This document shows, one piece after another, positions 1 to 25,569 of a DNA stretch of 64,000 nucleotides (position 1 is its first letter; each line of letters opens with the position of its first letter). The DNA is taken from assembly GCA_004431415.1 (NCBI GenBank), contig QPMI01000584.1:47106-111105 (forward strand), in the 5' to 3' direction. Position numbers and translations under genes: made by a program. Under the pieces are notes generated by a model. The model made no database searches. It was not told the DNA's origin and worked only from the letters and a program-made list of their open reading frames with translations. This DNA comes from Cyanophora paradoxa CCMP329. Lineage: Eukaryota; Plantae; Glaucophyta.

Positions 1-1409
1 GGTAGCGTTTTTACCCACTTTTCGGTTTGGTTCTCAGTCCCTCATTGAGAATCACCTTGTGAAACAGATGGGGAAAATGTTTGGTCGCCAATTTCGTAAT
101 ATCTTTCGGTCGCCAGGATAATAGCTGTTCATCCCAATACATGACAGTGCCGATGCTCTCGATGTGATGCAGCCTCGCATTTAAATATCGCAGATGGACT
201 TCAAAGCTATCGACCATAGGTGGAATGGGGGCAGTCTTGTAGTCAATATCGTCGGAATCCTCAGGCTGAAACGAATATTTCTTGGGGAATAGCTTATTAT
301 AACTGTCGCTGTTATCCTTTTTCAGCCAGTAAACAATCGAACCGAATGTGACTCGCTTCCCTTCCACCATTTTCTTGCCTTTGCAAAGGCTCATGAACTT
401 CTCATGACAGTCATCATATTCATATTTTTCGCTCTACTTGTTGCTTGCGAGGGATATTGTTGTCTTCGCAAGTATTGATTATAGCAATACCTACGTCGAT
501 CCATGTCTTATATTCATTAGCTCGCTCGCCACTGAGGCTCATAATGACTTCTTGCAACAGTTCAAACGAAACCTTATTATCTTTGAGATCCTCCAACACC
601 TCCTCCTTCTTCTTCACAGGTTCTTTACAGGGCTTGTCCTTAACAGACTTGGGCGCCACCGTTTGCTTAGGTTCCTCAGGCTTTGTAGCTTCCTTTGGTT
701 TATCGACCGCAAAGGCTGACATGGTGTCTACTTCCACCCACTTAGTGGGGCGATCGAAACATTGCACCAGGAAAAAACCATCGTGCATGCCTTCTTTCTC
801 GCAATCAATAAACTTAGTGAACACCACATTCTTATCGACATCGTGCTTTGATTTGCTTTGAGCGTCCAAAGCTTCGCCTTTGCAGCAACGGAGGCAGATC
901 AGGTTTTGAGTTGTTCCATAAACGCCACTATCGAATTCGACATTTTTGATGAGACCCATCGCTTTAAAAAGCTTTGGAATGTCTTCGTGGCGGCAGACCA
1001 GATCGGTAAATACGAAATGCCCGGAAATCTTGAACTTAGTGACATTCTCTTTGATTAAATGAACCCGGCGATGGCGAACAGCAACCGCAATTGTAGATCC
1101 CGACAGGGTTTGCAATTTCTTGCGCATTTCCCTGATGATCTCTTCGGCTTCCTTATAGTTGTCGGCTACATCAGGTTTCAGATCAACGAACTTGTCCAGA
1201 TCCAGATAAACACGAGTCACTTGATCAGGTTGTATGCATTCCGCCCATGTAGGATAGGTCATATTGTCCCGTTTCTTTGAGTTATTGATGCGCTCAATAA
1301 TTTCATCATCGGTTAACTCAACCAAATTAGACGTATTGCGAGAACCAGTCAGACATTTCAGAAAGGTGCCCTTGACATTAGAGAATGCGAATTTCGTGAT
1401 AGCGTCCAT
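1..1409 (-). CDS. AEP (PrimPol-like) primase with PriCT-2 domain, probably continuing into a helicase beyond the window; frame broken at ~430 and probably at ~40
   Basis: AEP motifs RVYLDLD, KISGHFVF and FDSGVY. PriCT-2 starts as ANEYKTWIDVGIAI in ORF 420-1409 and resumes in the +1 frame as SEKYEYDDCHEKFMSL...TFGSIVYWLKKDN (ORF 11-394). Adding one base to the run at 39-41 gives an open frame GTENQTEKWVKTL to the window edge. Confidence 0.85.
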
Positions 1410-1419
1410 CTTCTCTGTT

Positions 1420-1444
1420 TTACTCTAAGCGGAGAAAATATTTT
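1420..1444 (-). promoter_or_regulatory. Conserved viral upstream motif, copy 1
   Basis: AAAATATTTTCTCCGCTTAGAGTAA, 24/25 identical to 1861-1885, just upstream of the primase ATG. Confidence 0.65.
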
Positions 1445-1555
1445 TCAGGTTGTTCATTTTTTGCGCATTATCCTTAAATCCCTTTACAGTTTTTTCCCGA
1501 TGATAAAATCGATTAGCATCGGGGCAATCGATAGTATGGTAAGGAGCTTCCCGAT

Positions 1556-1849
1556 TTACATCGGAAAGCCGCACGAAAAATAAGGAATGCGCTCAGCGGC
1601 AATCGAGAGTTTGCGTTTTCTAATACTTACGGGGCGCCCCCGCTTTCCCATATGGCTTCCCTCCTCGGCTTTGCGACGATAATACGATTCCAAAGCCATC
1701 TTCTTCTTGAATTCGCGATATTCGGGATCCTCGTTATACCGATTCCGCATTTTGATGATTTCACGGATCCGATAATTAAGTCCGTCGCCTTTCTTCATGT
1801 CCTCAGTGACAAGCTTTGCCTCAATATTTACAGCAGCGATGGTGGTCAT
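1556..1849 (-). CDS. Small basic viral protein with AT-hook-like KRGRP motif, putative DNA-binding
   Basis: 97-aa ATG ORF, co-oriented with neighbours and preceded by the same 25-nt upstream motif as the primase gene. Confidence 0.7.
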   Translation of the reverse strand: MTTIAAVNIEAKLVTEDMKKGDGLNYRIREIIKMRNRYNEDPEYREFKKKMALESYYRRKAEEGSHMGKRGRPVSIRKRKLSIAAERIPYFSCGFPM

Positions 1850-1860
1850 CTTTTCGTTCC

Positions 1861-1885
1861 TTACTATAAGCGGAGAAAATATTTT
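1861..1885 (-). promoter_or_regulatory. Conserved viral upstream motif, copy 2
   Basis: AAAATATTTTCTCCGCTTATAGTAA just upstream of ATG 1849. Confidence 0.65.
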
Positions 1886-1899
1886 ATCAGTCGTATTTC

Positions 1900-2040
1900 C
1901 TATTTCTTCTTTAAATCATTTTCTGAGCTGTCATTTTTTGTGATCGAAGCGAGTTCTTCTCTACGTTTTTTAATAGCGACTTCCAATGCGTATTGCGCGC
2001 GTTTCCTGTATAGGATCGCGTAGAGATCGGGGTCGGGCAT
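1900..2040 (-). CDS. 46-aa viral hypothetical protein (not in ORF track)
   Basis: MPDPDLYAILYRKRAQYALEVAIKKRREELASITKNDSSENDLKKK*. Fills the gap between co-oriented genes, and a variant of the upstream motif (TATTTTCGCGTTA) precedes it. Confidence 0.55.
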   Translation of the reverse strand: MPDPDLYAILYRKRAQYALEVAIKKRREELASITKNDSSENDLKKK

Positions 2041-2067
2041 TCGATACTATTTAACGCGAAAATAGTT

Positions 2068-2415
2068 TCAGCGATCGTATTCGCCCAAATAAAGCGGATT
2101 TATTGGCGGATACGGGGAATCAACGCGAAAATGACCTTCCACGGAATTAGGGCACGAGCGGCGTCTTATATAGGATACTTGCACGTCTTCTATTGCTGTC
2201 TGTGGGACTATATTGGAGTTCGCAGGCACAGGCGAGGGCGATTGAGATCGGGGACGATCGTGATTATCACTGTGGTTGGAATATACAGATGATCGCCTAC
2301 CTCCATTATCCTCGTCCGAAATGTCAAACTCTACGGTTGTGTCGCAGCATCCGGACTTACAGTGAGATATGAAATGCAGGTGAAACATCTCAATGCATTG
2401 TGTGATGAAATTCAT
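2068..2415 (-). CDS. Small viral protein with CKSGCC cysteine cluster and disordered tail
   Basis: ATG at 2415 (MNFITQ...HCKSGCCDT) preferred over the track's non-ATG start; co-oriented with the block. Confidence 0.55.
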   Translation of the reverse strand: MNFITQCIEMFHLHFISHCKSGCCDTTVEFDISDEDNGGRRSSVYSNHSDNHDRPRSQSPSPVPANSNIVPQTAIEDVQVSYIRRRSCPNSVEGHFRVDSPYPPINPLYLGEYDR

Positions 2416-2615
2416 CGACCCTAATATTGCACAACGTATTAAATATTGGAGAAAAGAAAAGGGAATGAGGGTGTTACTTGCTCGCCTGTTCCCATACGAA
2501 TTAGTCGACCTTATAATGGTGTTTGTGGAGCCGACCTGTCCCTTTTGCAAGGGAATTCATATTAAGACCCGCTCTAAATACGGGCGGATTCATTTATGTT
2601 TGAACGACTTGCACA

Positions 2616-3287
2616 TTAGAAGCGACGACGCCCACCGAACATAGATGACAGATTGGCACCCGGCTGTGCATGCACACCCGATGGGTTAACGAAACCGCCC
2701 GGCTTTGGTGCATTTTCAGCTATGACTGTCTCTTTTCTTTCGACTGTCTGAACATCGGGAACAGTTGCCCGCTTCTTTTCCATTTCCACGCGAACAGCTT
2801 GTTTAATCAGCTTGCGCTGTTTGTATTCCTTAGTGAAATCATCAAAGGCTCGCACAGTAGTGTCGTATGTAGCTAAACGCGCTTCCAGTGCCCTAAACTT
2901 CTCCTCTAATTCCTGACCGACTTTCTCGCCCTTGGTCACATAGACAGATGCCCGCTTTTTAGGGGCTTCCATCGATGCAGGTAAAGCGGCTGTTGCTTCG
3001 GCTTTTACCACCTTATTATCGGTTAGCTTTTCGCCTGTGAGCTGTGATTCGGCGAGGGATTGATCCGCCAGCTTTCTATCAGTGGAATCGACCGGCTCCC
3101 GCTTAGCATCCACCTTTTGAGCACGCTCTGAAACCTTTGTATTCGGGTCAATCAGATCGAAATCTATTTGGTCAGAAGCGGCAGCACCGCCAGTGCGACC
3201 GGCATCCTCCGCAGGATTAATCTTGCCAGCGACAACAGCGCTTTGATCTTCCATTTGGATAGCTTTCCGCGAGTTCTTGGGTGGCAT
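2616..3287 (-). CDS. Viral hypothetical protein, charged coiled-coil; candidate core/structural protein
   Basis: 223-aa ATG ORF next to the ATPase, with upstream motif variant AATAAATTTCTCGCATAA; C-terminus SMFGGRRRF. Confidence 0.75.
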   Translation of the reverse strand: MPPKNSRKAIQMEDQSAVVAGKINPAEDAGRTGGAAASDQIDFDLIDPNTKVSERAQKVDAKREPVDSTDRKLADQSLAESQLTGEKLTDNKVVKAEATAALPASMEAPKKRASVYVTKGEKVGQELEEKFRALEARLATYDTTVRAFDDFTKEYKQRKLIKQAVRVEMEKKRATVPDVQTVERKETVIAENAPKPGGFVNPSGVHAQPGANLSSMFGGRRRF

Positions 3288-3310
3288 TTATCATTATGCG
3301 AGAAATTTAT

Positions 3311-4234
3311 TCAAAATTTACCCAATTTCTTTGCAAATTTTGGGCGGCGCTTTTCTTGGTATGCCAGCAATAGATTGGGGTCTTTAAGTAGGTCGGCTTC
3401 GATTATTCTTTTGGTGGATCGCTTTAAGGTGGCGACGTTTCCACTCACAGGTTTCGTTATATCGGTGGTTTGGGGTTGGTCGCCATTTACCTCTGTGGAG
3501 CTCTGTTTTACCGGCTGTTTACCAGCGGGCTTTATCTCTTCCACCGCTTTTTTAAAGAACCGCTTGAATTTATATTCGTCAGGCACCGGATCAGCCTTGC
3601 CCACAGAGAATTCCAGGCTATATTTCGAGTTGTCAATGCAGATAACCTGATAGCTGTGACTGTATTCGTTCATCACCTTCTCAAACCAATGCTTTTCGTA
3701 TGGATTAAACTCGTCCTCAGCACTCTCCATCTCTTTTCTGTTGGGCAGCGAGAATAGAAAGATATATTCGGAGTTAACCCTAAGTGTCGGCGAAATCTTA
3801 GTGAGTTTTTGTGACAGAATCCACACAGATATGAATAAATGGCGCCCCGACGTGAATAGCTGATTTAATATAGGTTCACCTCTTCCTGACATCGAAAGAC
3901 TTGGATTGTCAATGAAATCATCGAGTATGATTAACAGGTTACCGACTTTCTCCTTTTTCTTGATTCGCTCCTTGCGTTTCTGTATTATATTGTCGATCAG
4001 CTTATGATCGAAATCCTCATACAAATACGATGTGACATTGTCATATTGATGGTTCCAGATCGTGGAAGCGAATATCATCACCGAATCTATCTTGTCCTCG
4101 TTGTGGTAAAGCAGGTATTTTAAGAATACTGACTTACCTACTCCCGTTTTTCCGACAGCAAGTAAACGGCAAGGGAATGAAAGACTTGCCGGGTCGAATT
4201 CCGCAAGATCTTCTATACTCACGTTTCCAGTCAT
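3311..4234 (-). CDS. A32-like (FtsK-HerA) DNA packaging ATPase
   Basis: Walker A GKTGVGKS, Walker B LLIILDD, arginine-finger motif LFTSGRH followed by ILSQ and LRVNSEYIFLF. Confidence 0.96.
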   Translation of the reverse strand: MTGNVSIEDLAEFDPASLSFPCRLLAVGKTGVGKSVFLKYLLYHNEDKIDSVMIFASTIWNHQYDNVTSYLYEDFDHKLIDNIIQKRKERIKKKEKVGNLLIILDDFIDNPSLSMSGRGEPILNQLFTSGRHLFISVWILSQKLTKISPTLRVNSEYIFLFSLPNRKEMESAEDEFNPYEKHWFEKVMNEYSHSYQVICIDNSKYSLEFSVGKADPVPDEYKFKRFFKKAVEEIKPAGKQPVKQSSTEVNGDQPQTTDITKPVSGNVATLKRSTKRIIEADLLKDPNLLLAYQEKRRPKFAKKLGKF

Positions 4235-4286
4235 ATTTGCTTTCCCTTATAAGAAACAAAATAAAAATTACGAAACGCGACAGTCC

Positions 4287-5735
4287 TCATGCCGTCACTC
4301 TAGACAATCCATTGGCATTCATTACAAGAATATTGTGGCAGTAAGCCGAGATCTGAACACCGACCTTTGTCCAGGTGGCGAGGGGTGTGCCATTGGGTGT
4401 GAGGAGCAGGAAACTTGAAGCTGATTGTGTTAGATCGACATAGCCAGTCGCCTTCTCACCTTTGAGCGCCGCTTTACCATCGAGGGCAAAGCAGAAGCCA
4501 GTGTAAATGGGGCGCTTGTTGCTATCGATCCAGTTAGTCATCTTGAATTTATCGGCGAGCTCCATAGCCGCGGATTGCAGCGGGACACCAGTGTTGGAAT
4601 ATAGGTAATTGTTGTTATTTAGAACTTGCATCACGACATTATCATCGAAGGCAAGGGTGCGGACAGTAGAGTGCCCTCCGAAATTGTTGCCGAGTGCATT
4701 TTCGTCGCGAATCTTGACAACAAGTGCGTAAACAAGTCCAGAAATTTGAGATAGTGACAGGCGGAGACCGGAGCCGAGAGCTTGACCGGTATAATCCGCA
4801 AACTGAATATCAGTGTATGGGATGGCGATGCCAGAGGTCTTAACACGAGTAATGATTTCGCCCATCGTTTCCTCATCGATGTTAACAGCATCCATAATAA
4901 GACGAGGGGTCGTCATTTCCAGATTCGCAAGAGCAGGTGTAGGTGTGAGAGCCGCACTATCGAAAATCGCAGTGGCACCCGAGTGAGCTAAGGTCTTAAT
5001 ATTTCCGAAAGCAGCCGCTTGAGCAAGCGTTGTCTCGCCATCAGTAGAATTGGTCGCAGTAATTGCAGCGGCGTTATTCTGAGCGTAAACGCCAGGAACC
5101 GCCGCAGTTTCGAGAAGCGCAGGGGTTTGGAAATATACTTCGACCGCGATTTCGGATGGGAGCGCACCGATGGGCACGCCAGCATCGAGGAAACTCGGAA
5201 TTCGCATGGTAAAAATGCCGCCAGCTTGGTTGCCGCCCTCTACCTTCGGTCCGAGATGCAGCCCATGCTTGCGCTTCTTTTGGTCGAATTCAGCCGGAGT
5301 GTTAGCCAGGAAAGCGTAATCTACCAGTCGCTCAGCCGGAATAATTTGCTCATACGACCCGTATTTAATGCTGACTCGCTGAACAAACGAGCCAGGAAGC
5401 CCGCGGACGAATCCAGTATTGAATAGATCAGCCGAGCAGTCAGCAGAGGTCTTGGCGATGGCAGTCAGCGCCTTTGCCGTAGGGATGGTAACTTGGAGGC
5501 TAATACCATTGCACCAATTGTAGCGAGGGAGGTAGAAGACCACACGAGTGGTAGCACCAGTAGAGGAGAACAGATTGCCGGGATCCGCAATTGGAAGCAC
5601 CTCCACACGAGAAGGCTTGAATTGTTTGTCCACACCCACAATAAATCCGCGATCCAAAAGCATGCTCTTGTAATCCTCCGGGGTTTCGAGGACGGATTTG
5701 AGCGTGAGGCGGCTAAGCGAGGTCGTGGGATCCAT
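4287..5735 (-). CDS. Double jelly-roll major capsid protein with NCLDV-like motifs
   Basis: 482 aa, beta-rich, between ATPase and penton. FYLPR..ISLQVTIP, VQRVSIKYG, IYTGFCFALD..ATGYVDL and ISAYCHNILVMNANG parallel NCLDV MCP motifs. Confidence 0.85.
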   Translation of the reverse strand: MDPTTSLSRLTLKSVLETPEDYKSMLLDRGFIVGVDKQFKPSRVEVLPIADPGNLFSSTGATTRVVFYLPRYNWCNGISLQVTIPTAKALTAIAKTSADCSADLFNTGFVRGLPGSFVQRVSIKYGSYEQIIPAERLVDYAFLANTPAEFDQKKRKHGLHLGPKVEGGNQAGGIFTMRIPSFLDAGVPIGALPSEIAVEVYFQTPALLETAAVPGVYAQNNAAAITATNSTDGETTLAQAAAFGNIKTLAHSGATAIFDSAALTPTPALANLEMTTPRLIMDAVNIDEETMGEIITRVKTSGIAIPYTDIQFADYTGQALGSGLRLSLSQISGLVYALVVKIRDENALGNNFGGHSTVRTLAFDDNVVMQVLNNNNYLYSNTGVPLQSAAMELADKFKMTNWIDSNKRPIYTGFCFALDGKAALKGEKATGYVDLTQSASSFLLLTPNGTPLATWTKVGVQISAYCHNILVMNANGLSRVTA

Positions 5736-5768
5736 ATTTCGTTTTTATCTTCCGCTGAGAAATTTATT

Positions 5769-7055
5769 TTAGAAGAACGGATTATTTTTTACAGCCACCC
5801 CGCTCAACGCATTCGTTAAATTGCCGCAATGCGGGTAGTCCTCATATAGCATTTTCGCGAATCCCTTATTAACAATGCGCTGTAAATCGTCGTCGGGCTC
5901 ATCCACTCCCATAGTGAGTTCCAAAATGAATGTGTGCTCGCAGCTTCCGAGGAAATACCTATAACCGCTCTCCGTGAGAATTTGAACGGTTAAACTATCA
6001 AAGGAGAGGCGGGTGTTAAAGTATTTCGTGAAAGCATCCGCCCCATAATTAATTAGCTCAGCATCAGCATAGGCTGTGCCTTTCGAAATCGGGATCTTAG
6101 CGAGGAATCCATTAGTAGCCTCGGTGCATGTCGTAAAAAGCGAGCAGTCCGGCTCTGTGATCTTTAAAACTATTGCATTATCCGGTGTATAATCAGGGGC
6201 AGTGCCTCCGGCTATGCCTAAGACCAGAGCCGTCGAATTATAATTGCGGAATGCATCACCAGCTGAGTAAACGACACCGCTCCCAGCGAAGGCTGTGTAG
6301 CCCGATCCGTTGTATTGATCTATCATTATATTCTCTCTGATCGATGTAAACCCGAGAAGAGTCATCGTGCGATAGGCGAGCACCTTTCTTTCATTCGCAG
6401 TAGACCCAGTGGCATTACTCGGACCATATTTAGTGAAAGCTATGTAGACATAATCACTCGAATAAAAGCATATGGCATTTAATGTGCTCTCAAAACGACA
6501 TCTCACCACCGGGTAAAAGGTTCCTCCTGTCGATGCGTAGCTTGGATTAATTTTTGTGTCGATCATATCCTTGATGTAGTTGCCAGTTCCATTTTTCGTT
6601 AAGATGTTATCGATTGCAGTTGCAAGGTCGGTTCCAGTCGAGTATGTGCCCGGAGGGATCGTAATTGCTACGTCTCTGTATCGGGTATATCTTCTGAAAG
6701 TGTTTAGGTAATCAGGCGGTATATAGTTGCCTTGGTCGCCAGCATCTATGGCTTTGTAAGCGTCATATATTGCAGTTGCCTGTGAATCTCTGATTTCCTG
6801 AGTGGCACCATTCAGCTGACCGCTCGAAAATCGGTAAGGAAATGATATGAAAATCGTATTAGCATCATCGGCTTTCGTTTCCCCGATCTCAGTATAGAAT
6901 TGAGGGCTTGGAACCGTGGGAATCGTGTTGGAAAATTCGATCTGTCGCACAGCGATGCTCTTCACATTGTGGTATTGCTTTGGAAGGGTCACCTTATAGG
7001 AATGAGCCGAGCCCTCTGATCGATCACGGCTACTGATGCTGAGATACTCGCGCAT
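5769..7055 (-). CDS. Minor capsid (penton-like) protein 1
   Basis: Likely start ATG 7055. N-terminal ISSRDR..YKVTLPKQYHNVKSIAVRQIEFSNT and C-terminal DSLTVQIL..EHTFILEL are typical single-jelly-roll penton motifs. Confidence 0.85.
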   Translation of the reverse strand: MREYLSISSRDRSEGSAHSYKVTLPKQYHNVKSIAVRQIEFSNTIPTVPSPQFYTEIGETKADDANTIFISFPYRFSSGQLNGATQEIRDSQATAIYDAYKAIDAGDQGNYIPPDYLNTFRRYTRYRDVAITIPPGTYSTGTDLATAIDNILTKNGTGNYIKDMIDTKINPSYASTGGTFYPVVRCRFESTLNAICFYSSDYVYIAFTKYGPSNATGSTANERKVLAYRTMTLLGFTSIRENIMIDQYNGSGYTAFAGSGVVYSAGDAFRNYNSTALVLGIAGGTAPDYTPDNAIVLKITEPDCSLFTTCTEATNGFLAKIPISKGTAYADAELINYGADAFTKYFNTRLSFDSLTVQILTESGYRYFLGSCEHTFILELTMGVDEPDDDLQRIVNKGFAKMLYEDYPHCGNLTNALSGVAVKNNPFF

Positions 7056-7082
7056 TTTATTCTTTATTAATAGGAAATAAAA
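7056..7082. promoter_or_regulatory. 27-bp near-palindromic AT-rich spacer between divergent ATGs (candidate bidirectional promoter)
   Basis: TTTATTCTTTATTAATAGGAAATAAAA is centred on TATTAATA. Called viral genes to the left are on the - strand and those to the right on the + strand. Confidence 0.6.
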
Positions 7083-8057
7083 ATGATTCGGAAGCCAGTT
7101 AACGATTTCTATAATGGCAAGTTTACGAGGGTCAATGTTAATATCGATTCTATTGAGCGCAGTGCAGGGCACCCGGGAGAATATACAGTAAAGCTTTCTC
7201 AGCGACTTCTGAACGTAAAAGGGGTGCGCATTGCGAGCGCCGAGCTCCCAAACACGATTTATGCTGTCACCGATAATTCCAGAGGCGTGACCATACAGGG
7301 AATGACTAACAGCATCACCTTTTCCCCTTTCCCTGACATAGGAAACTACACCCCAGCGATTTGGGGATATGGTAATAAGAACTTAGGCTATTCGGGCGGT
7401 TTTGTCGATGTAAACCCTCTCACAAGCGAAAGCGTCACAGTCTACTACAAGTGGCTCTATAATCCAGCGACAATGAAAATTACTTTTTATTCGAGCATTC
7501 CCCTCACACTGAGCTGTGCACATGACGACTTCGCAAGGTTCCATGGAATGATCAAAGGGGATATTTATCAAACAATTCCAGTTGGTGAGGGTTCAGAGCA
7601 TCTCACGGTAGACTATTTACCCCTCACACCCAGCAATCCAAAATACTCATTTCTACAAGCCTATGAGGGCAAAACAAAATACCCCGCCGGAATATCTGTG
7701 CTTCCATTCCCTCTCGAACATGCAGTGACCTTCCCGAATGCAATCAATTTAAATCCGACCCCCTATGTTTACCTACAAATTAAAGAGTTTACGCCCTTTT
7801 ACGACAGGTATATGGTGGCAGCAAAGACAGATGAGGGCGGAAATGCAAACCTCGCTAAGGTTCCACTAACCAGCCCCTTGGGATCGTTTGTTTACTACCT
7901 GACATTCCGCAGAATCGATACTGTGGAGTTCTTTAATTCCCACGATCAGGCTTATGATATAGACACCCTCACAATTAAATGGCTCGATGCCTACAATAAT
8001 GTAGTCGACTTTAATGGCGTTAATCACAGCTTTATATTAGAGGTGCTATCGGGTTAA
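7083..8057 (+). CDS. Minor capsid (penton-like) protein 2
   Basis: VNIDSIER..YTVKLSQRLLNVKGVRIASAELPNT, PYVYLQI, LAKVPL and IDTLTIKWLDAYNNVVDFNGVNHSFILEV. Confidence 0.9.
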   Translation: MIRKPVNDFYNGKFTRVNVNIDSIERSAGHPGEYTVKLSQRLLNVKGVRIASAELPNTIYAVTDNSRGVTIQGMTNSITFSPFPDIGNYTPAIWGYGNKNLGYSGGFVDVNPLTSESVTVYYKWLYNPATMKITFYSSIPLTLSCAHDDFARFHGMIKGDIYQTIPVGEGSEHLTVDYLPLTPSNPKYSFLQAYEGKTKYPAGISVLPFPLEHAVTFPNAINLNPTPYVYLQIKEFTPFYDRYMVAAKTDEGGNANLAKVPLTSPLGSFVYYLTFRRIDTVEFFNSHDQAYDIDTLTIKWLDAYNNVVDFNGVNHSFILEVLSG

Positions 8058-8075
8058 AATAATCTTATATTACAA

Positions 8076-11000
8076 ATGAGTATCACGAATCTCCCCTTTA
8101 TCACTCGGGAAACCTTGTATTTGGATGACGGTTTCGAGCTCAGCAGTAACATTACCGCTTCCAATGTGACCATATCTTCGAACCTTGTGGTAAAAGACTT
8201 TCTATTAAATCAGAGCAACCTTCAATATATTGATATCACCAGCAATCTCCCTTTTACCTATGGCACTGATAACTCAGCCCTCGTTATCTATCATGGGGGC
8301 TCGCCTGTTGCATTCTTTGGCAGCAATTTCCCCACAGTGCGAACCTTTCAGCACGAAATCAATAAAGCCCGCCCCATCCCACTGACAGCTGTCGTCGAAT
8401 GGGATCCTGTTGAATATTCGCAGAGCATCACAAGCAATATCACCCTCACTCGACCGCATTTAATTGATGTCATGGGGGTCGACCTTGTAAAGGAGTTTTA
8501 TAGCGAGCGATTCACAAGAAACGAGCGAGATGTAGCCCAGGATCTCGAAATTTCGGGTTTATCAATTGCTACCGCAGCAAACACGGCAGGGCTCGCTGTT
8601 TTAACAGGTGCAATCACCATCACTGATGCGATCATGTATTTATCCCGCGATTTGGTGCCTTTGCTCGATCATCAATTTAATCTCGGGCAATCTAACACTG
8701 ATGCTGTTAAGAAATGGCTGAATGTGTATGCCTATGATGGGTGGTTTGATGACTTGCACACGACCAATTTTTATAGCACGACCTCAAAAACAAGTAACAT
8801 AATCTTGCCTTTCAATCACTCAGTCCGACCCAGTGATTTACCCACTGATGAGAGAGCTCTGATCAGCTATAACGACTTTAACAGCAATCTTTCCCGCTCA
8901 GTTTCGCGAACTGAGACCTACACTGTCGAGGGATACCCTCAGCAGCTCGCAAATGGGGTCTATGTCGCTTATGTAGGCAAACCTACATATACATTCACTT
9001 GGGATCAGTTGGGTGTCACAGGTTTCGAGACGACTATACCCACTGTTTCATTGGTGGATCACACTACTTATTATAATCCTATCACTAACAATAATGAATC
9101 GAATAAAGCATTTATTCAAAATGTCACCTCCACAGGGTTTCAGGTTTCGTTTGTCATTAACGAGACATACAATTTACTTATCATCCGAAACAACTTATTG
9201 ACTTCCGAAGCTACTATTAGTTTCACTCTTAACATCAATTATATCACCCCTGAATTCGATAGCAAACCCAGAGTAAAGGTTTACCGAGATTTACAAGGTA
9301 GCAATATCGTGCCCTTCTCACAGAGTTTCGATCTTGGCGCGAACTCTTTAAGGTGGAACACAGTTTATTCTTTGAGTGCAAACACCTGTAATATTGTAGT
9401 CGCAGGTTCATCGGCTACTATTGGAGATCTGACCGCCCCTTTTAAAAAGGAGTATCTTAAAGAACTGTATATTACAAAGTCTGATTTACCAGATGCTATT
9501 TCGTTGGTGCTCTCCCCGACTCCCAGCATCTCATACCACAATGTGAAAGACACAAGTAATGTAGTGCGGAGTGGAAGCAAAGTATTCCAGGCATCCGAGA
9601 TATCAGCAACAACATATAGATATCTTGCAGGGGTTCCAGCGAATTTTAATTTCACATTTGAGACACCATTTGTTTCCCCTCCTACTATTGAAATAACAGA
9701 CACGAATTTGTATGTGGTCAATGATGGGTCAGCTACATCACTTCAAAATGCACCAGCCGGCTACTCCCCATTTGTTGCAACTAACATAACAACCACCGGC
9801 TTCACACTTGTCGGAAATGCAACAGTGACATATGCTCTGTCAGGGTATCCTGTTGGGTTGTATTTTTCGAAATTTAATCTCTCTGTTATCCCAGCAGTGT
9901 CCCTTGCTCCTCCCTTTACTATCAGTTGGAAGGCAACAGGAACTATTCCGCGATTTGACCCGAAGATCGATTAAAAATAAGGTATCCTCTCGATGTGACC
10001 GACCTCCATACTACGAGGATCAATGGGCAGAATTTCGTGTTTAATGGAACCAATGCGACTTTGATCGATAATAGAGTCACAAATAATTACTTTTTCGATT
10101 CTCGATATATTAATACTTGCAACATTGTCATACAGAAAACGTTTGAGGATCGCAGTAAGACCTTAACAGTGACCTTGCCCACTCACTCGAATGTCTCAGA
10201 TGGATTTTACTATTATCTGTTAAATCGCTATTACACCTCTTATATTCCATATCCTTCTGAGACTGTCAACATGAGCTATCCCAGAGTCACCCTAACATCG
10301 ACCAATGCTGACTTCTTTGGATCCACAGACTTCATGAGAGACTTCTTTTATTTTACATCCTCCACAGATGGTCTCTTAGTTTATTACTCTTACAAATATG
10401 AGTCAATTGCTACCCAAATCGAAAGCCACCCAAACACTGATGTGATCACAGCAGGCGATAAGAAATATATAAAAACCGCTTCCCCATGGGTGTGCACTGT
10501 CCGGCTTGATGACAGATACACTCCTAACCTAAATAACATTGGATTGCACTCGACATGCAATATTTATGTGCAAGGTGCGATTTCGGCTACCAAATATTTT
10601 GAGGGTGGAAATTGTGATACAGGACATAGGTTGCTATCGCGAAATGGACTCTTTGAGTCATTCAGTGGGACGGCTCTACCGCCCTTTATCAGGGACACAG
10701 TCTATGACACTACGTGCAATATTTGGGTGTGTCGATCTGTGAGCAATCCACCTGTGACACAGGAATTATACAAGTATCTCGCAGATACCTATGGTGCAAT
10801 CTCAGGATCCTCCACAGGAAATCCAGCGACGGCTCCCATCGTGTTTGCAAATGCATACACAGCGCCGACCTCATTAGCAGGGTCGACAGAGCCGCCACCA
10901 AATGATCCAAATCCGAACCAGCCTAACCCAGATCCCGATTCACAAGATCCCCCTACAACTAATCCAGATCCAAACACACCACCTAATAATCCCACGAATC

Positions 11001-11404
11001 CTACAAATCCAGTCGGGGCACCGGGAACTAATCCAGGAACGTTAGTGCTTATGATTCTCTTGCCGATTCTCGGTGCTCTTGGGCTTGTGCTTGCATACAA
11101 ATTTCGAGCTCTTTGTTGTGCTTGCTTAGATAGAACCATTGCAGGTGCAGGAAATAAATACTCAACGCCTGAACTGAATGTGACCCAAACAGCCGAAGGA
11201 GATGTGGGGTTAGAGGTGAGATCGGCAGATGGAAACGCTCTTAGTGTTGTAAGGACTGACCGACCACCAGCAAGTAGGGCAGCACCCAAAAAATCACGAG
11301 CACAAGAATTGGCAGAGCAAACGATGAATAATGACAGAGACTTTATGGCGGAAATGGCACAGCGAGAAGGGAGAATATATGAACATATTCCAAATGTAAT
11401 GTAA
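8076..11404 (+). CDS. Fibre-like protein (~1109 aa) with lectin/gp53-like modules, Pro/Asn stalk and C-terminal transmembrane anchor; one frameshift at 9959-9961
   Basis: Fibre repeats LVP..QFNLG..KKWLNVY and IVP..FDLG..RWNTVY; FETPFVSPP...FTISWKATG module. One added C joins ORFs 8076-9974 and 9995-11404 (RFDPEDRLKIRYPLDVTDL). TM segment LVLMILLPILGALGLVLAY. Confidence 0.75.
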
Positions 11405-11442
11405 CAACCTTAATTTTTGTAGTATGCCTTAATAGAGAAATA

Positions 11443-14400
11443 ATGACGGAACCCATAGTAGAAACGACAGTAAAGAATGCTGTATTGGATAATAAATTTT
11501 ATATAACCCACGCCAATATACCCAGTGAATCCAATGACCTAATTGTTGATCTAAAAGGTTATGTGATGGGAGCTATGGCTTCTAACCTATGGAATGACAT
11601 TTTTGGTTACGAGTTTGGTCACATATATGACATAGCAAATGGGATAGGCTATGTGGATGCAATGGCAGGAACAGCCTTTCGAAATCTAAATTGCAACTGT
11701 GTGGGAGGGTGGATGTTTCAGATCTGTTCAAATGTCGATCCTACTATTGATCCCGCCACGATTACTTTTGATTGCAATCTGTATGCCCCCAAAACCATTT
11801 TTTCTATCACTTGCAATCTCGTTAATTCGGATGTGCCCATAGTAGCACCTGTAATAGGTGCATCAAATATGTATATCCAAAGAAATCCGGTCGTGCATAC
11901 AGGAGCTGAATTTATATTGGGCGACAACACCCCAATCAGTCGAATCGAACTACCCAATTCTCACAAGCATTTGTGGGAACATATCACCAATGCCCCATTA
12001 ACCTATCCACCCAGTTCTCACGAGCATTTGTGGGAGCATATCACCAATCGACCATTAACCTTCCCACCTGATCCACACACTCATGATTACTTGTCTCTCA
12101 AAGGTGGTGTTATTTCATCTAATCTTACAATTGCATCAAACCTTACAGTTACAAGTAATATTTATAGCAGTAACATTTATGCAAGTAACATTTACAGCAG
12201 TAACCTATGGGCAAGTAATATTAATGGAAGTAATGTAATAGTCGATTATCTCACTGTGAAGATTGAAGCAAACCTACCAAATCACCCGACATCGAATGTT
12301 GTTTTAGATTGGTTAGCAAAGCAAAAACACACAAAAGCAGATATTACAGATTTCGCCCATAAGCATTTATGGGAAGATATCACAAATCCCCATCGACCTT
12401 CCCACCGGGAAAACACACTCATGATTATTCAGAGATTACCAATAGTAACCACAGGCACCCATGGGAGGAAATAGATGAGCAGCCAGTTTTTGCGCAATTG
12501 AATGCAATCGGAAATGTTTTTAATGGGGTCACACTTTACCAATCGATTAATACACCTGAAAGGCTATTTTTGAATGATCATTATGTTAGTCTGAATGGGT
12601 CGTTTACAGGTGAAACAGGCACACCGATGGTGGGAACTCTTGCTGTAAGATTACCCAGGGATCCAATCGTAAACGGAGTGTATAGTGGCGATTTCAATGT
12701 AGGAGTAAATGATACTTTCCCCAGTATCTATGTTACGAATTATCACCCAGGAGAAATAGGACAAGAAGCGGATTTTTCAGCAGCAATTCAAGTAAATGTA
12801 ACGGATCAAAGCGCATATGATGGAGCAAGACCTAAGATTGTGTTCACAAGGGAGAAAGTTGTAAACTATCTTCCTGTTGTGGGACAACCCACAGATGATC
12901 ACGGAAAATGCGAGATTGCATGGATTAAAACAACAACAGGTGGCGCCTTAGAAGTCAATCAGAGAATGGCGGCGAAAAACTTACACAATACAACCCTTTC
13001 AGGTGTGGTAACAGATGATTACCTCCAAAGCAAAAACTATGTAGATGATACAGAACTTGCAGCAATTCTTGAAGATTATGTTACAGATACCGAATTAACG
13101 TCGGCTCTTGGGAATTATCTACCTCTTACAGGTGGGACTCTTACAGGTGATGTGCACGCCCCGAATTTCTTTGTCGACACTCCACATGATCAAACATTTC
13201 CTGTTGTCCACCTTGGTGCTGAATATGTATTAGATCCAAACACTCCAATAAGTCGACTCGAATTACCCAATGTTCACAAGCATTTTTGGGAGCATATTGT
13301 TAATCCCCCATCGACCTATCCACCTGATTCACACGATCATGATTATTTACCACTAACAGGTGGAACTGTGGCAGGTGATGTGCATGCTTCTAATTTCTTT
13401 GTTACTACTCCGAATGATCAAACATTTCCTGTTGTCCACCTTGGTGCTGAATATGTATTAGATCCAAACACCCCAATCAGCCGCCTCGAATTACCCACGA
13501 ATTTCACCTTTAATCTCGTGGATGAGTTCCCTAACAGTCAAAGTCTCATGTATTTCACCTCTGAAAATCGCCTTTCGGGTGCATTCTCACCAATTGAGCT
13601 GTCTATACCAAAGCAAAAGGTGAGCTACAAGGAGCTTACAGATGTGCCGACGGGATTCAGTGGGAAGTGGAGTGATATCATTCAGAAGCCGACTTGGAGT
13701 AGTGTAGCATACACAGGAAATTACTATGATCTTGTAAATCCTCCCGATTTCACAAGCTATATACCTCGTTGGATTGATCAAGGTGTAATTATATCAGAAT
13801 CTACACTTCCTTTCAATGGGACATGGGATAGGTTATTTACTAAGCCGAATTTGCATGCTGTTGCCACAAGTGGAAATTATGATGATCTGATAAACACACC
13901 AAACCTACATGCTGTGGCTACAAGTGGAAATTATGATGATCTGATAAACACACCAAACCTACATGCTGTGGCTACAAGTGGAAATTATGATGATCTGATA
14001 AACACACCAAACCTACATGCTGTGGCTACAAGTGGAAATTATGATGATCTGATAAACACACCTACTTCGCCACCTACTCACAATCACAGCATCGAGTTGC
14101 TCACGAATTTCGGTAGCTATGTAAATGCAAATGCATATGTGCAACAGGGGACAGCGGATGTAGTTATACCTAATCAAGTTTATACAGTAGGGCAAGTGTT
14201 TACAGCATCAGGAACCGTTACGTTTTCTACCCATATTATAGTGATCCAATAGTTAATGCTACTCTCGAAAACAGTATTATTTTAACGAGTGTCGATTTCA
14301 CCAATAGCATATATATCTCCGCTGAATTTGTGAGTGGGAACCGTGTTGGTTTCAAAAATAAATTCACCTGGATTGCTATATTTACTTGTTATTCGGCGAT

Positions 14401-14491
14401 CAATTATACGAATGTGCCACAAAACGAAAGAACGCTTAAACTCCATTGGATTGCTGTCGGACCTCTCCAAAACAATAATATTCTCACGTAA
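11443..14491 (+). CDS. Long tail-fibre-like protein (~1016 aa); two single-C frameshifts at 12388-12391 and 14230-14232
   Basis: HxHxWExI..P repeats, YLPLTGG motifs, SNIYx pentapeptides and VATSGNYDDL repeats. Restored frames complete the repeat (HLWEDITNPPSTFPP) and a C-terminal module VTFSTPYYSDPIV...LHWIAVGP, with stop at 14489-14491. Confidence 0.8.
13845..14060 (+). repeat. Coding tandem repeat, 4 x 54 bp (PNLHAVATSGNYDDLINT)
   Basis: Units start at 13845, 13899, 13953 and 14007; the last three are identical. Confidence 0.95.
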
Positions 14492-14511
14492 TAATAAAGA
14501 ACAATCAAAAG

Positions 14512-15423
14512 ATGTCGACTGTGTTCACGCCTGTGTTTTCCTTATCAGCCAGTGCTGTCCATAACGTGCAACACACTGTATATGATCTAAACGAGTCATT
14601 CCCTTCGACTGAGACAGCGAAAACCGATTCTTTTAATGAAAACACGATACTCAGAGTCAAAGAACTCAGAGCCGACAAGGCCGGTGGAATCGTTAAAGCT
14701 ACTGAACTGATCGTATCGAATCGACCCGCAATATCTTCGGGGCTGGTCACCAAAGATAATCTATATGAAGGTCAAGCGGATTATAAAACAGCTTTCGATC
14801 CGGCTGATAGGAAATCAGCGGCTTTTCAAGTTTACAGTGGCGGGGCATGGATCGGGACTGGACTGAGTGTGAATGGGAATGCGACAGTAAGTGGGACAGG
14901 CTCATTTACTGGATTACTCACAGCAAATGGTGGTGTTAGTGGAACCACTGGGACTTTCTCAGGGCTCCTTACAGCGAATGGAGGGGTTACTGGAACCACT
15001 GGGACATTCAGTGGTAGTGTTAAAATGAACAGTCACCCAATGATGGGAAGGCGTGGAACCACAGCGCTTGGATCAGGGAGCACATTTATTAAATTTAACA
15101 GTTATACAACTGGTTTTACAAGGCTTGGGACATCAACGTTTGCTGATGGGCGTTTCACATGTCAGACAAAAGGAGTATACATTGTTCTGGGTTCTTCTTT
15201 ATCAGCAAATATTTCGAGTGGCTTAGCACAGCTTGAAATAAAAATAAATAGCTCTACGGTGAGCCAATTTAGATATAACATAAATCCCGCTGGTAACTGG
15301 ATTGGTATGGAGACAGGAGGAGTAGTAGAACTTTCTCCGGGAGATTATGTAGAGCTCTGGATTCAGAATGCGTGGCAAGATGGTTGCGGGCTTTATATAG
15401 CTATGGTAACTGCCACTGATTAA
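14512..15423 (+). CDS. Short fibre with C-terminal C1q/TNF-like head
   Basis: GTFSGLLTANGGV shaft repeats; head FIKFN...GRFTCQTKGVYIV...VELSPGDYVELW. Confidence 0.8.
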   Translation: MSTVFTPVFSLSASAVHNVQHTVYDLNESFPSTETAKTDSFNENTILRVKELRADKAGGIVKATELIVSNRPAISSGLVTKDNLYEGQADYKTAFDPADRKSAAFQVYSGGAWIGTGLSVNGNATVSGTGSFTGLLTANGGVSGTTGTFSGLLTANGGVTGTTGTFSGSVKMNSHPMMGRRGTTALGSGSTFIKFNSYTTGFTRLGTSTFADGRFTCQTKGVYIVLGSSLSANISSGLAQLEIKINSSTVSQFRYNINPAGNWIGMETGGVVELSPGDYVELWIQNAWQDGCGLYIAMVTATD

Positions 15424-15445
15424 TTTTGTTTCCTTAGAATAAAGA

Positions 15446-15709
15446 ATGTCGAACGTATATGAAGTGATTTTATCGAATACAGAAAAGTTGGCAATGGAAT
15501 ATATTGCGTTCTCCCCTGCTGAATGGATTACAAATGTAGTGAAAAGTCGTGCAATGTCGGCAATGGATGACATTGTAGCCCAAGAGGTTCAATCGTGTAT
15601 TGCCGCTGGAATTCCGATTCCACTCACAAAGGAGGCGATTGTAGAGCAAGCGTTTAATCGGGGGACTGTTCGAAAGGCAAGCGAAATTCCTGTGAGTGCT
15701 CCTATGTAA
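15446..15709 (+). CDS. Small protein resembling phage fibre-associated (assembly chaperone-like) proteins
   Basis: 87 aa directly after the C1q fibre. Pattern LSNTEKLAMEYIA.SP.EWI.N....RA..A.D.IV...IP...EAIV..A recalled from marine phage proteins; not searched. Confidence 0.65.
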   Translation: MSNVYEVILSNTEKLAMEYIAFSPAEWITNVVKSRAMSAMDDIVAQEVQSCIAAGIPIPLTKEAIVEQAFNRGTVRKASEIPVSAPM

Positions 15710-15869
15710 AGAGAGATGGGTTTATTGTTATTTTTCATAGATCATGCATAAGAAAGGCATGTATCTTGCATAGTGGGCGGGGCGCACTTATCCCCTTCGT
15801 ATCCACTTAGTATCCACTTCATATCCACTTTGTGTTCACTAAATTATATCGCACTGATTCAGTTTGCAT

Positions 15870-16893
15870 TTTGCCCCCACCCTACACCCCACCCTATACT
15901 ACAATCTCGTTATTTCTATACATATTTACTATCTAATTTAATAGAGTTTATACATTGAAATAAGTGAGGTGTATCGATAAGTAATACAGGGTGGGGAGGG
16001 TGGGTTGGGTGGGGTCTTTTTTGCCCAAAAATATTTGACCCCCAAAAATTTAAGGGATTCAAAAAAATGCCCCACCTCACCCCACTTACCCCACCCTATC
16101 GAAGTCCGCACGATATCATAGTAGGCTACATCGGGATTGCGATCATATCACAGTGTATACAGTGAGGGTGGTGCCCCACTTTCTCACCCCACCCTATCGA
16201 TTCGCGATTCAGGGATCGCGAAATATACAGCACATGATACTTGTTTTTCTTAGTGATCGCGCCGTTCTAATACGATCTGAATATATCATATCTCGTCGGT
16301 ATCACGTCGGTTCAATATCGTAATTATTAAATGGTTGGCTGATACCACTTTCACACCCCACCCTCACACCCCACCGGTATTAATTTAACATACATAATCT
16401 CTATACTTTATACATTAATTACATTGAAATCAATCATAAATATAATAAAAGATACAGGGTGGGGTAAGTGGGGTTGGGTGGGGTCTTTTTTGACCAAGAA
16501 TTTTTGAGGGGAATTATTTTAGGGAATTCAAAAAAATGCCCCACCTCACCCCACCCGCCCCACCCTATCGAAGTTATCGAAGTCCGATAAGTATCAAACC
16601 GGAAGTAAAAATAACACATCATGATTTTATGTGTGCCATCTTAGATTGGACTACCATACCGATACCACTCACACCCCACCCTCACACCCCACCCAGTATT
16701 AATTTAACATACTCAATCATACATATTTATATTTAAATTACATTGAAATCAATCATAGATAAAGAGAATAATACAGGGTGGGGTAAGTGGGGTTGGGTGG
16801 GGTCTTTTTTGACCAAGAATTTTTGGGAGTGAAACATTTTAGGGAATTCAAAAAAATGCCCCACCTCACCCCACCCGCCCCACCCTATCGAAG
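15870..16893. repeat. Three direct-repeat units, each containing an imperfect G-tract/C-tract inverted repeat (subterminal viral repeats)
   Basis: Cores at 15984-16104, 16452-16573 and 16771-16893. Units 16341-16573 and 16661-16893 are near-identical with 320-bp spacing. Confidence 0.9.
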
Positions 16894-17148
16894 CTACGTA
16901 GGTGATACACATGACTATATGAGGCGCGTCCCAAGCAGCACATTGTAGTTGTTTTAGATACACATCGCGCATCGTAAACACATATCGGCTATATCGCGAT
17001 TACATATTATATATACATATTTTACAAAGATTCCACGATACTTATATTATTTTTATTGATTCATTTACGAACTACCGATAGAATACATATCACATATCGA
17101 TATACACTATGATAAAAATGCTAATATCTTTATATAACTTATAGTAAC

Positions 17149-17219
17149 ACACATATAAAAACAAATATTATTATCCTGAGCGGAACGCGAGGGATAATAA
17201 TATTTGTTTTTATATGTGT
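17149..17219. repeat. Perfect 28-bp inverted repeat with 15-nt loop at the virus/host junction
   Basis: ACACATATAAAAACAAATATTATTATCC (17149-17176), loop TGAGCGGAACGCGAG, exact reverse complement at 17192-17219. Confidence 0.95.
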
Positions 17220-17251
17220 CCAGCGGGGGTGTTTAAGGTTCAAGGACGCAC

Positions 17252-23200: not shown

Positions 23201-23917
23201 TGACAGCTGCAGCTTGTTGACAGCTCCGAGCTGAGCGCCGGTGTCTTTCGACCAGACCCGAATCCGCTGAGCGTCCGCATTGTTTGCGACACTGACGAGC
23301 ATTGCAGAGCGCGTTATGAACGCGATGCCGTAGACCCAGTCCGTGTGGCCCCTCAGCACGCGGAGAACGGATCCTGTGGAGACGGACCACAAAACAACAG
23401 TGCGGTCCGCAGAAGCCGTAGCGAATATGTCGCTTGTAGAGAATGCCGCCGACAAAACTACATTGGTGTGGTTGAAAAGCGAACGCAGCTTCGATCCATT
23501 TGAGAGGGACCAGAGAAACACCTCCGCGGACATCGTCCCTGTCACCGCCAACGCGCCATCGGGCGAGATAGCGGCCGCCCGGACTTCGCTACCTTGCGTG
23601 TGGTTAAGCATCAGTTGGACTGAGCTGTCGCTGATGCGCCAGAGGCGAGCGACCGAGTCGGGACCCGCTGCGAGCACGGCCGATGCGTTGGGGTTGAAGC
23701 ACACAGTGAACACGCGTACGGAGCCCTTCGAATTCGCGCCACTGCTGAGTGAGCGCAAGAGTGTGCCGCCCGTCGCATTAACGCTCCAAAGTCGCACGGT
23801 GCCGTCATCCCCTGCCGAGGCCAGCAGGCGTCCTGTGCCGTCGAGCGCCAAGGAGAGCACCCGCCCTGTGTGCCCCGGCAGTGTTGCCGGGGGCGCGTAC
23901 TCCGGCTCCGATGCCAC
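17252..23917 (-). CDS. Multi-exon host gene: WD40 propeller + PKD/Ig-like and SEA-like modules + acidic low-complexity region + multi-TM C-terminal region; start uncertain, 3' part missing at the virus junction
   Basis: WD40 repeats at 22853-23917 (GHT..V..LA..LASAGDDGTVRLW); PKD-like LDGSRS, GLYDVALTVTDSRG and WTQLAGP; SVSRGSVLIRF; hydrophobic exons near 20400, 18700, 18100 and 17280. Confidence 0.7.
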
Positions 23918-25569
23918 TGCAGCTGCAGCATGTTAACTATTCGATGGCGGCGCAAATCATCACATGGTCAGAATTCGAAATGCTGTTAACGCACCGATCG
24001 CGAGTACCAGAAAGGTGCAAGTGATTGTCAAGATCGATATGCAGATATCGCGATTAATATTGGCTATGTGCACATAATTGATTCTACGGCCGCGGCGATA
24101 TAATCGATACCGATGGCATCGATCCAGATGACCGCTGGCGTCTCTGCATAAGCGGAATGAGGTGTCCAGAGACGAATTCGAACTCTGCACGTGAGCACCA
24201 TCGATATCAAATTTCGAATCCAGAAGGTTAAGCTTAAGTTCATATCATACTATAGCTAGTAGGAGCGTGCGGCCAGCTCAGAGGCTGCAGAGTTAACGTT
24301 AAGTTAGAGGAGCTTTTAAATTTAATGATCGCGCGCGTAGGGAATCTATAGCGCATACTTCTTTAGATCGTTACTATATTCTACTCCAGCCTCGATATCT
24401 CGATCCGATGATCGGCGCGCGGTCGGCCGCTGTTGGACCAAGCAAACGCCGCGCGGCTGCGCACATGCATGCACACCGGTACCGTCATCGCGATGAACTC
24501 GCCGACTGTGAAGCTTGTTCAAGCGAAAGTGTTGACTCTGGTTGCTAACCGCTTAATAAACGCGTCCACGTTGGCTGGCCATGGATGTGTGCGAGAGGAA
24601 GTACACGGGACAATTGCAAGCTGATCATGACCACCTATCTGACGCATGTGGCCGCGGATCGGATGTGGCCGATGCTATAGGTAGCACGTGCATGTATACG
24701 TACATGTACACGAACAAACCCTGCGATGCGCAATGCATATGTACATGCGCCGCGGCGCAATGCAGCTGCAGTTGCTGCAATTTGCAAGCAGGATATTAAT
24801 GCTACTAGTGTGTGCCAGTGTGCCACGCTCTACATCTATGTCCACTCAGTATACGTAGCGGAGAACTGGCGAGCAGATCCAGACTCTGGAGCCGGAGCTT
24901 CTCTAGGGGACTCTTCGGGAGTGGAGCTAATCGGATCATTGGACATTTGGGCCCCAAAGAGCATGCGCAGCTGCCGCAGTGCGCCGCAGCCTGCACATAC
25001 CCCTGGTACTGTAGAACTGGTTTATGTACTGTAATTCGGGTAATATTTAAGACCCCAAAATAATTAGTAATCCCGGGGTTTGGTCGGTTTAGTAGGCTGA
25101 AAATAATTAAGAGTTGGCCGCGCGGACCGCTTTAGTAGCGGCGCCGGCCTTTAGAAGGGGGTGGGCGCGGCGCGCGCTAGGGGTCTAGATCTGTTGGAGC
25201 GTCCGAGCGCCCCTCGCACTTCAGCTAGCTTCTCCCGCGCTGCAACTACGGCTGCGCTACGTACCCCCCAGCACCTCCGAGGCTCAGGTTTAGTATACGA
25301 TAAAACTTTAGTAGTCGGGCCTTCAAACTTTGGTACTATAAAGATCCAGTATACTAAATATTTCCCGACTTACAGTAGTACAGGAAAATATTTAGTAGTT
25401 CGCCAAAACTGTACCGTAGTACATGTCACTTTAGCAAGGGTAAAATCTTTAGTAGGTCGGTCAGACTCGGTCTTCGCAGGGCTTTTGTATGGTGGAGAAG
25501 GGACTAGTACGTACGGAGTCTACGGACTACCCCTAAGAAATCTCGGCTTTAGAGGCAGTAGTACTAGTA

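What the first reader, a model, noticed from the sequence alone, without database searches (positions are those of the whole stretch)
1..17219. Apparently recent endogenous small DNA virus with NCLDV-like capsid, AEP primase and bacteriophage-style fibres
Seen: a complete-looking morphogenetic module (ATPase, DJR MCP, two pentons), primase-PriCT2 and three fibres, with no introns and no drift toward host GC. Known: PLVs, virophages and mriyaviruses share this module and integrate into protist genomes. Inferred: the MCP motifs look closer to Nucleocytoviricota than to classical Polinton or virophage MCPs, so this may be a poorly described lineage infecting a glaucophyte-like alga, possibly still active.
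Basis: partly seen in the sequence, partly recalled or inferred. Interest (0 to 1): 0.85.

Follow-up and report, generated by a model that had tools for sequence, protein, structure and literature searches.

The report
Giant-virus-like small provirus in glaucophyte alga
This is the right-hand 17 kb of a small DNA virus inserted at many places (roughly 20-30) in the genome of an alga, likely Cyanophora; its coat genes lean towards those of giant viruses and it ends in an invariant DNA hairpin, so it likely belongs to the recently described small relatives of giant viruses and would give them a culturable host.

Summary
Real and integrated, but less new than claimed. Window 1-17219 (GC 43.5% vs 68.5%) holds an AEP primase with PriCT-2, an A32 ATPase, a double-jelly-roll MCP, two pentons and phage-type fibre genes. 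Read contigs of 4 of 4 runs join the hairpin arm (28-29 nt only) to single-copy flank. Depth suggests about 20-30 copies of capsid core and end, but 7-12 of the primase cassette. Most frame breaks look like assembly errors. MCP and penton profiles match NCLDV proteins (E 1e-7 each) better than the few PLV controls, but the ATPase falls outside the sampled NCLDVs and no mriyavirus marker was found. The MCP family is already listed, unnamed, for Cyanophora paradoxa (Bellas 2023). NCLDV-related PLVs, terminal palindromes, replicase swapping and phage-like fibres are all in print. This scan had already noted sibling hairpin-ended and replicase-swapping viruses elsewhere in the same genome.

The parts
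11..1409 (-). AEP primase + PriCT-2, in two frames in the window (420-1409 and 11-433); runs off the window's left edge; likely the N-terminal part of a D5/C962R-type primase-helicase
   Evidence: Atlas AEP_C962R/PriCT_2 0.97; Pfam PriCT_2 E 0.004; read contigs have 27 more bases in 6-711; helicase is inference
1556..1849 (-). small basic ORF with an AT-hook-like motif (motif name recalled); shares a 25-nt upstream motif with the primase gene
   Evidence: (D19)
2068..2644 (.). two small ORFs of unknown function (2068-2415 minus, 2393-2644 plus)
   Evidence: no family
2616..3287 (-). 223-aa charged protein, unknown; possibly a core or scaffold protein (inference)
3311..4234 (-). A32-like packaging ATPase
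   Evidence: Pox_A32 E 9.7e-11; one relative, P0003, 73%; trees
4287..5735 (-). double-jelly-roll major capsid protein
5769..7055 (-). penton (minor capsid protein) 1
7083..8057 (+). penton 2, divergently transcribed from penton 1
   Evidence: DUF5901 E 5e-4
8076..11404 (+). large fibre/lectin-like protein with Pro-rich stalk and C-terminal transmembrane helix; two ORFs in the window, likely one gene of about 1,109 aa
   Evidence: H_lectin weak; extra base in reads behind 9958; frame arithmetic and hydropathy
11443..14491 (+). phage-type repeat fibre; three frames in the window, likely one gene of about 1,016 aa
   Evidence: PHROG tail hits; 46% to phiRSL1 tail fibre over 147 aa, E 1e-24
14512..15423 (+). 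C1q-domain fibre or spike
   Evidence: Pfam C1q E 0.0013
15446..15709 (+). 87-aa partner of the C1q fibre; same gene order in tailed phages
   Evidence: 46.5% to Limnohabitans phage DC33, E 1e-10; C1q gene directly upstream in 2 of 2 phage loci inspected
15860..16895 (.). three origin-like blocks: heptamer repeats facing each other across an 82-96 nt core of 75-82% AT
   Evidence: 21 heptamers in 15710-17219, 0 in 1-15709, 0.38 expected; alignment; origin function inferred
17149..17219 (+). terminal palindrome, 28-bp perfect arms and 15-nt centre; the element's right end
   Evidence: 73-nt contig at about 30x single-copy depth ending exactly at 17219
17220..19343 (.). single-copy flank joined to the hairpin arm
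   Evidence: one contig in each of 4 of 4 runs

Best explanation
It is the right part of an integrated, multi-copy, PLV-sized DNA virus whose capsid module likely belongs to the Nucleocytoviricota-related PLVs and which likely sits as a quiet but intact provirus family in a glaucophyte alga. Shown: the gene set, an exact invariant end at 17219, and several unrelated single-copy flanks on that end. Inferred working cycle: (1) An integrase in the unseen left part inserts linear genomes by their palindromic ends with little target specificity; I favour an rve/DDE enzyme (about 55%) over a tyrosine recombinase (about 40%). (2) After release, an AEP primase-helicase would load at the repeat/AT-rich blocks, and the 3' end would fold back to prime or cap synthesis, with host or helper polymerase doing most of the copying. 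(3) The A32 ATPase would package DNA into a DJR capsid with two penton types. (4) Phage-derived lectin, C1q and repeat fibres, which vary among copies, would bind cell-surface glycans. The primase cassette is present in only about 40% of the capsid-bearing copies, so replication modules are likely exchanged within the family.
Confidence: 0.62

Rival explanations
1. An ordinary PLV (Aquintoviricetes-like or unplaced Polisuviricotina) whose NCLDV likeness only reflects that NCLDV capsids dominate the reference libraries.
For: 10 of 12 non-Cyanophora EVE MCP rows read in Bellas Table S2 have an NCLDV top hit; ATPase groups with PLV-type loci on the midpoint-rooted trees; gene set (AEP, two pentons, phage fibres, no VLTF3) is PLV-like; Bulzu 2025 treats Cyanophora EVEs as PLVs.
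Against: Like-for-like control: MCP family profile E 1.3e-7 vs NCLDV but 0.28 vs the PLV-type profile, which itself scores 0.07 vs NCLDV; penton hits PBCV-1 P1 but PLV-type penton candidates only at E 0.2-3. Only one PLV clade of three sequences and two singletons served as controls.
Confidence: 0.25
2. A mriyavirus, or the end of a larger integrated giant-virus fragment.
For: NCLDV-leaning MCP and penton; C962R/D5-type AEP; mriyavirus-related regions are reported in a glaucophyte assembly (10.1101/2025.04.19.649669, passages).
Against: No VLTF3, VLTF2, RuvC or HUH family hit in any ORF of the 17 kb, although these genes lie among the capsid genes by gene number in yaravirus and PEV2 (Table 1); the MCP has no Capsid_N/Capsid_NCLDV Pfam hit, while true NCLDV MCPs score E 1e-12 to 1e-56; ATPase outside NCLDVs.
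Confidence: 0.07
3. A decayed fossil family, or an assembly chimera of free virus and host DNA.
For: The assembled ORFs carry at least five breaks; 27 bases are missing near the primase in this copy or its assembly; no laid piece spans the element, so mosaic assembly of several copies is possible.
Against: Reads carry the missing bases; near-identical copies; junction k-mers at single-copy depth with no branch in 4 of 4 runs; ratios to flank steady within about 1.6-fold across runs.
Confidence: 0.06

Closest known systems
Cyanophora paradoxa endogenous MCP clusters of Bellas et al. 2023 (PMC10120064; text parts 1-3 of 7, supplement 2 rows and parts 26, 28 read)
   Same: P0001 (41% to the window MCP; EukProt C. 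paradoxa) reads as the same 456-aa sequence as Table S2 row 106 by eye, HHpred iridovirus MCP 98.5%. Table S4 lists 366 MCP hits in two 'new' clusters (272 + 94).
   Different: By my column count the clusters (21, 29) have no group name; Cyanophora is not mentioned in the main text; no genome anatomy, ends or lineage given in what I read.
Nucleocytoviricota-related PLVs: Zoravirus/VC102, VC134, VC218, Zephyrvirus, Alpenseevirus (Bellas and Sommaruga, 10.64898/2026.06.19.733378; parts 1-3 of 5 read, supplements closed)
   Same: PLV size, NCLDV-leaning morphogenetic module, primase-helicase replicases (Zephyr), RVE or YR integrases.
   Different: No environmental MCP relative at E<=0.001 apart from one unnamed Logan protein; Zephyr has no known endogenous example or host; Cyanophora, palindromes and hairpins are not in the main text; their HMMs could not be run.
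Palindrome-ended virophages and PLV subtype 4 of Halocafeteria seosinensis (10.64898/2026.07.28.741278; passages)
   Same: Terminal palindrome at the host junction; non-pPolB replicase; hairpin-priming model.
   Different: Other host and capsid types; there TIRs, TSDs and RVE integrases are shown, here the left end is unseen.
Mriyaviricetes (Yutin et al. 2024, PMC11253617; abstract, results parts 1-2 of 3)
   Same: Small genome, NCLDV-like MCP, AEP-helicase, no polymerase seen.
   Different: No VLTF2/3, RuvC or HUH detected; integrated at many sites, whereas integration genes are reported absent from mriyaviruses.
PLV phage-like fibres (Bulzu et al. 2025, PMC12220804; passages, section 13 part 1, supplement search)
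   Same: Phage tail repeats with C-terminal H-lectin reported once in a C. paradoxa PLV.
   Different: The C1q fibre plus 87-aa partner pair, syntenic with tailed phages, is not in the section I read.

Membership tests
PLV in the broad sense (small DJR virus) | DJR MCP, penton and A32 ATPase | tested here: met
PLV in the broad sense (small DJR virus) | 15-40 kb element with integrase (rve or YR) and terminal repeats | not testable with these tools
   left part outside the window; no genome held
PLV in the broad sense (small DJR virus) | integrated at many host sites with a defined end | tested here: met
   (28-29 viral nt on junction contigs)
Nucleocytoviricota-related PLVs (Zora/Zephyr/VC134/VC218/Alpensee) | MCP profile clusters with NCLDV/mriyavirus MCPs | tested here: inconclusive
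   family profile E 1.3e-7 vs NCLDV, window alone 0.2; few PLV controls; published HMMs not available
Nucleocytoviricota-related PLVs (Zora/Zephyr/VC134/VC218/Alpensee) | ATPase in the NCLDV-related tree | tested here: inconclusive
   long separate branch outside sampled NCLDVs; no identified member of these groups in the sample
Nucleocytoviricota-related PLVs (Zora/Zephyr/VC134/VC218/Alpensee) | Mriya48 envelope gene (Zora, VC134, VC218) | not testable with these tools
   no profile on hand; a TM protein is present but unassigned
Mriyaviricetes | VLTF3, RuvC, HUH endonuclease, Mriya core genes | tested here: inconclusive
   no hit in the 17 kb seen; left part unseen
Nucleocytoviricota proper (giant virus fragment) | MCP detectable by Capsid_N/Capsid_NCLDV and ATPase inside the NCLDV clade | tested here: not met
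   no Pfam hit for window MCP, P0001 or P0002 vs strong hits for controls; trees
Polintoviricetes | pPolB + rve + adenain protease and Mavpol-type MCP | tested here: inconclusive
   replicase seen is an AEP; no Polinton reference could be fetched; protease and integrase could lie left of the window
Virophaviricetes | virophage-type MCP and penton | tested here: inconclusive

The most novel reading that the evidence does not exclude
A glaucophyte-restricted, still intact lineage of hairpin-ended small viruses that forms its own deep branch among the Nucleocytoviricota-related viruses (or is the first endogenous, host-anchored member of the host-less Zephyrvirus group), carried in tens of copies in a laboratory alga and therefore open to direct study of how the small relatives of giant viruses integrate, replicate and build virions.
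Probability: 0.3. Interest if true: 0.7.

Novelty: new member of a known kind. Interest (0 to 1): 0.45.

Why it matters
Small viruses with giant-virus-like capsid modules are candidates for living relatives of giant-virus ancestors, and most are known only from metagenomes without a host. A multi-copy, apparently intact family in a culturable early-branching alga would make their integration, hairpin-end replication and helper dependence testable. No virus isolate of glaucophytes is known to me (recalled, not searched). Each separate feature already has a precedent in print, so the gain is placement and a model system, not a new kind of element.

Tried and rejected
No whole genome held, so the left end could not be read. 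No relatives in IMG/VR for MCP, MCP profile, ATPase, primase or the 87-aa ORF or in metagenome contigs. Word-indexed protein search: none for the MCP, only P0002 for the profile. PDB sequence searches of MCP, profile, primase, ATPase and penton 2 alone gave nothing. Single-sequence fold pLDDT 32.5, not used. No RNA holder listed among 24 runs; four RNA-labelled runs held next to none of the words: no evidence on expression either way. No tRNA in the window, no Rfam hit in 1-20000. Motif scans for close ATPases and Polinton ATPases found 0. C1q ORF: no phage match by tblastn. Strand asymmetry of the hairpin is small in ViennaRNA (-27.8 vs -26.7 kcal/mol), which does not model sheared G.A pairs. 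Rejected: a mutated start codon at 9959 (the reads' extra base explains the ORF pair instead); protelomerase-type end (junction is at the palindrome's edge, not its centre; from recalled mechanism). Paper searches naming Cyanophora with capsid, polinton, mriyavirus or Polisuviricotina terms gave no description of this element; bioRxiv supplements were closed and may bear on lineage placement.
Full report
Observation. Window 1-17219 is 43.5% GC against 68.5% for the rest, and ORFs cover 96% of 1-15709. It encodes an AEP primase with PriCT-2 (Atlas 0.97), an A32 ATPase (Pfam E 9.7e-11), an MCP, two paralogous pentons whose joint profile hits PBCV-1 P1 at E 1.2e-7, and fibre genes. The MCP has no Pfam hit, but the Atlas places it with Capsid_N/Capsid_NCLDV clusters (0.98; recognition under the tool's mark). 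A poor model (pLDDT 39.6) retrieves DJR capsids first in three structure searches. The repeat fibre is 46% identical over 147 aa to a Ralstonia phage tail fibre. The C1q gene plus 87-aa ORF has the same order in 2 of 2 phage loci inspected, of 4 records hit.

The end. Inside it lie three blocks of heptamer repeats facing each other across AT-rich cores: 21 copies in 1.5 kb, 0 in the coding 15.7 kb, 0.38 expected.

Integration and copy number. Twenty of 24 listed runs hold half or more of the words of 9500-18500. In 4 of 4 runs laid, one unbranched contig runs from 17191/17192 to about 19343 at single-copy depth. It carries only 28-29 viral bases, below the tool's 31-base rule, which is what a graph contig gives where a repeat branches into unique flanks. 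In run X4 a 73-nt contig covers the whole hairpin with no difference at about 30 times flank depth and stops exactly at 17219. Beyond it the graph splits into several flanks, some on long single-copy contigs, in 2 of 2 runs (16 of 25 pieces shown). Single-contig depth over flank depth is 15-28x for the capsid core, 21-30x for the end and 7-12x for 1-1929. These are rough figures. They suggest 20-30 proviruses, of which about 40% carry this primase cassette, in line with the replicase turnover reported for polisuviruses. Whether both ends carry the hairpin is open: end depth is 1-1.4x core, not 2x, but AT-rich hairpins may sequence poorly.

Intact or decayed. The window's ORFs are broken at five or more places. 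Read contigs carry one extra base at homopolymer runs behind 1630, 9958, 12387 and 14229, and 27 extra bases in 6-711 (12 of 23 indel rows shown). By frame arithmetic 8076-11404 and 11443-14491 are then single genes of about 1,109 and 1,016 aa. How the 27 bases are distributed was not shown, so continuity of the primase gene is inferred from the split PriCT-2 domain. Reads pool all copies, so the family is likely intact; this copy cannot be judged alone. Activity is untested.

Lineage. Among 1.84 billion representatives the MCP has 2 relatives (41% and 39%): P0001 from Cyanophora paradoxa and P0002, unnamed. P0001 reads as a row of Bellas 2023 Table S2, and Table S4 lists 366 MCP hits in that species in two clusters marked new. 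So the family is catalogued, though not described in the parts I read. The host is inferred from this and from earlier scan notes on the same genome; host genes were not searched. To test the NCLDV claim I fetched 85 IMG/VR loci by an ATPase motif (a biased sample, mostly NCLDV). The three-sequence MCP profile aligns to an NCLDV MCP profile at E 1.3e-7 over 129 columns; a three-sequence PLV-type control gives 0.07, and the two small profiles give 0.28 against each other. The window MCP alone gives 0.2. NCLDV top hits are also common for other protist EVE MCPs (10 of 12 non-Cyanophora rows read). ATPase trees (62 rows after removing short, weak and identical hits; 29 hand-picked rows; 27 without the two longest branches) keep the window lineage outside the NCLDV-type group (100/100), on a long branch with no stable place among five PLV-type rows. 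Labels are mine: 12 of the 22 NCLDV-type rows have an NCLDV MCP in the locus, the rest rest on contig name, gene content or tree position; no identified mriyavirus, Polinton or virophage was in the set. No mriyavirus marker was hit. The pattern fits the Nucleocytoviricota-related PLVs of Bellas and Sommaruga 2026, whose main text does not mention Cyanophora; membership could not be tested.

Mechanism. Shown: gene set, exact end, many flanks. Inferred: insertion of linear genomes by an unseen integrase (rve favoured because palindrome-ended elements of Halocafeteria pair with RVE; against this, AEP replicases usually pair with tyrosine recombinases); replication from the repeat blocks by a primase-helicase with the fold-back 3' end as primer or cap; packaging into a DJR capsid; attachment through variable phage-derived fibres (precedent). 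Dependence on a giant virus is plausible from other PLVs but nothing here tests it.

Verdict. A genuine, recent, multi-copy provirus: a new member of a known kind, with an unresolved and possibly deep position near the giant-virus lineage. Interest 0.45. Earlier scan notes describe hairpin-ended and replicase-swapping siblings in the same genome; sequence look-ups with this MCP and this end found no look-alike window.

Noticed in passing
window 1441, 1882, 3308, 5765 (minus strand): A shared AT-rich/CTC-GC motif lies upstream of the primase, the small basic ORF, the 223-aa ORF and the MCP, and nowhere else in 1-17219 by the regex used (pattern was drawn from these sites, so no independent statistic); candidate viral promoter.
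   Followed up: partly
window about 1930: Depth step from 7-12x to 16-24x and a switch from 0 to many substitutions marks the likely border of a swappable replication cassette.
   Followed up: partly
window 8672-14954: Fibre region is the most variable among copies: many 90-99% contigs, and joints skipping 650-1,800 bases or looping back between repeats.
   Followed up: no
   Followed up: partly
window 17220-17230: A second long single-copy contig (X4 3,178 nt; X5 3,883 nt) matches arm plus about 11 flank bases with 3 differences, and about a third of ends are followed by the same first base: weak hint of target preference.
   Followed up: no
window 17220-31000: Flank is only 58% GC against 73% further on, with an apparently intronless WD40 ORF at 22853-23932 (Pfam E 1.8e-35); may be another low-GC island. 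A 198-base skip 18405-18604 appears in 4 of 4 runs at single-copy depth.
   Followed up: no
window 55600-64000: Intron-rich high-GC gene with DEAD-box/helicase and PolA-like motifs, likely DNA polymerase theta (read by eye, not searched).
   Followed up: no
L001:1433-4300 and L002:2114-3267: C1q-ended fibre followed by a homologue of the 87-aa ORF in two tailed-phage genomes; the small protein has no Pfam family and may be a C1q-fibre chaperone or cap.
   Followed up: partly
L036, L006: Two IMG/VR contigs named as giant-virus MAG pieces look like PLV-type elements (SF3 helicase beside ATPase, no NCLDV MCP hit).
   Followed up: partly
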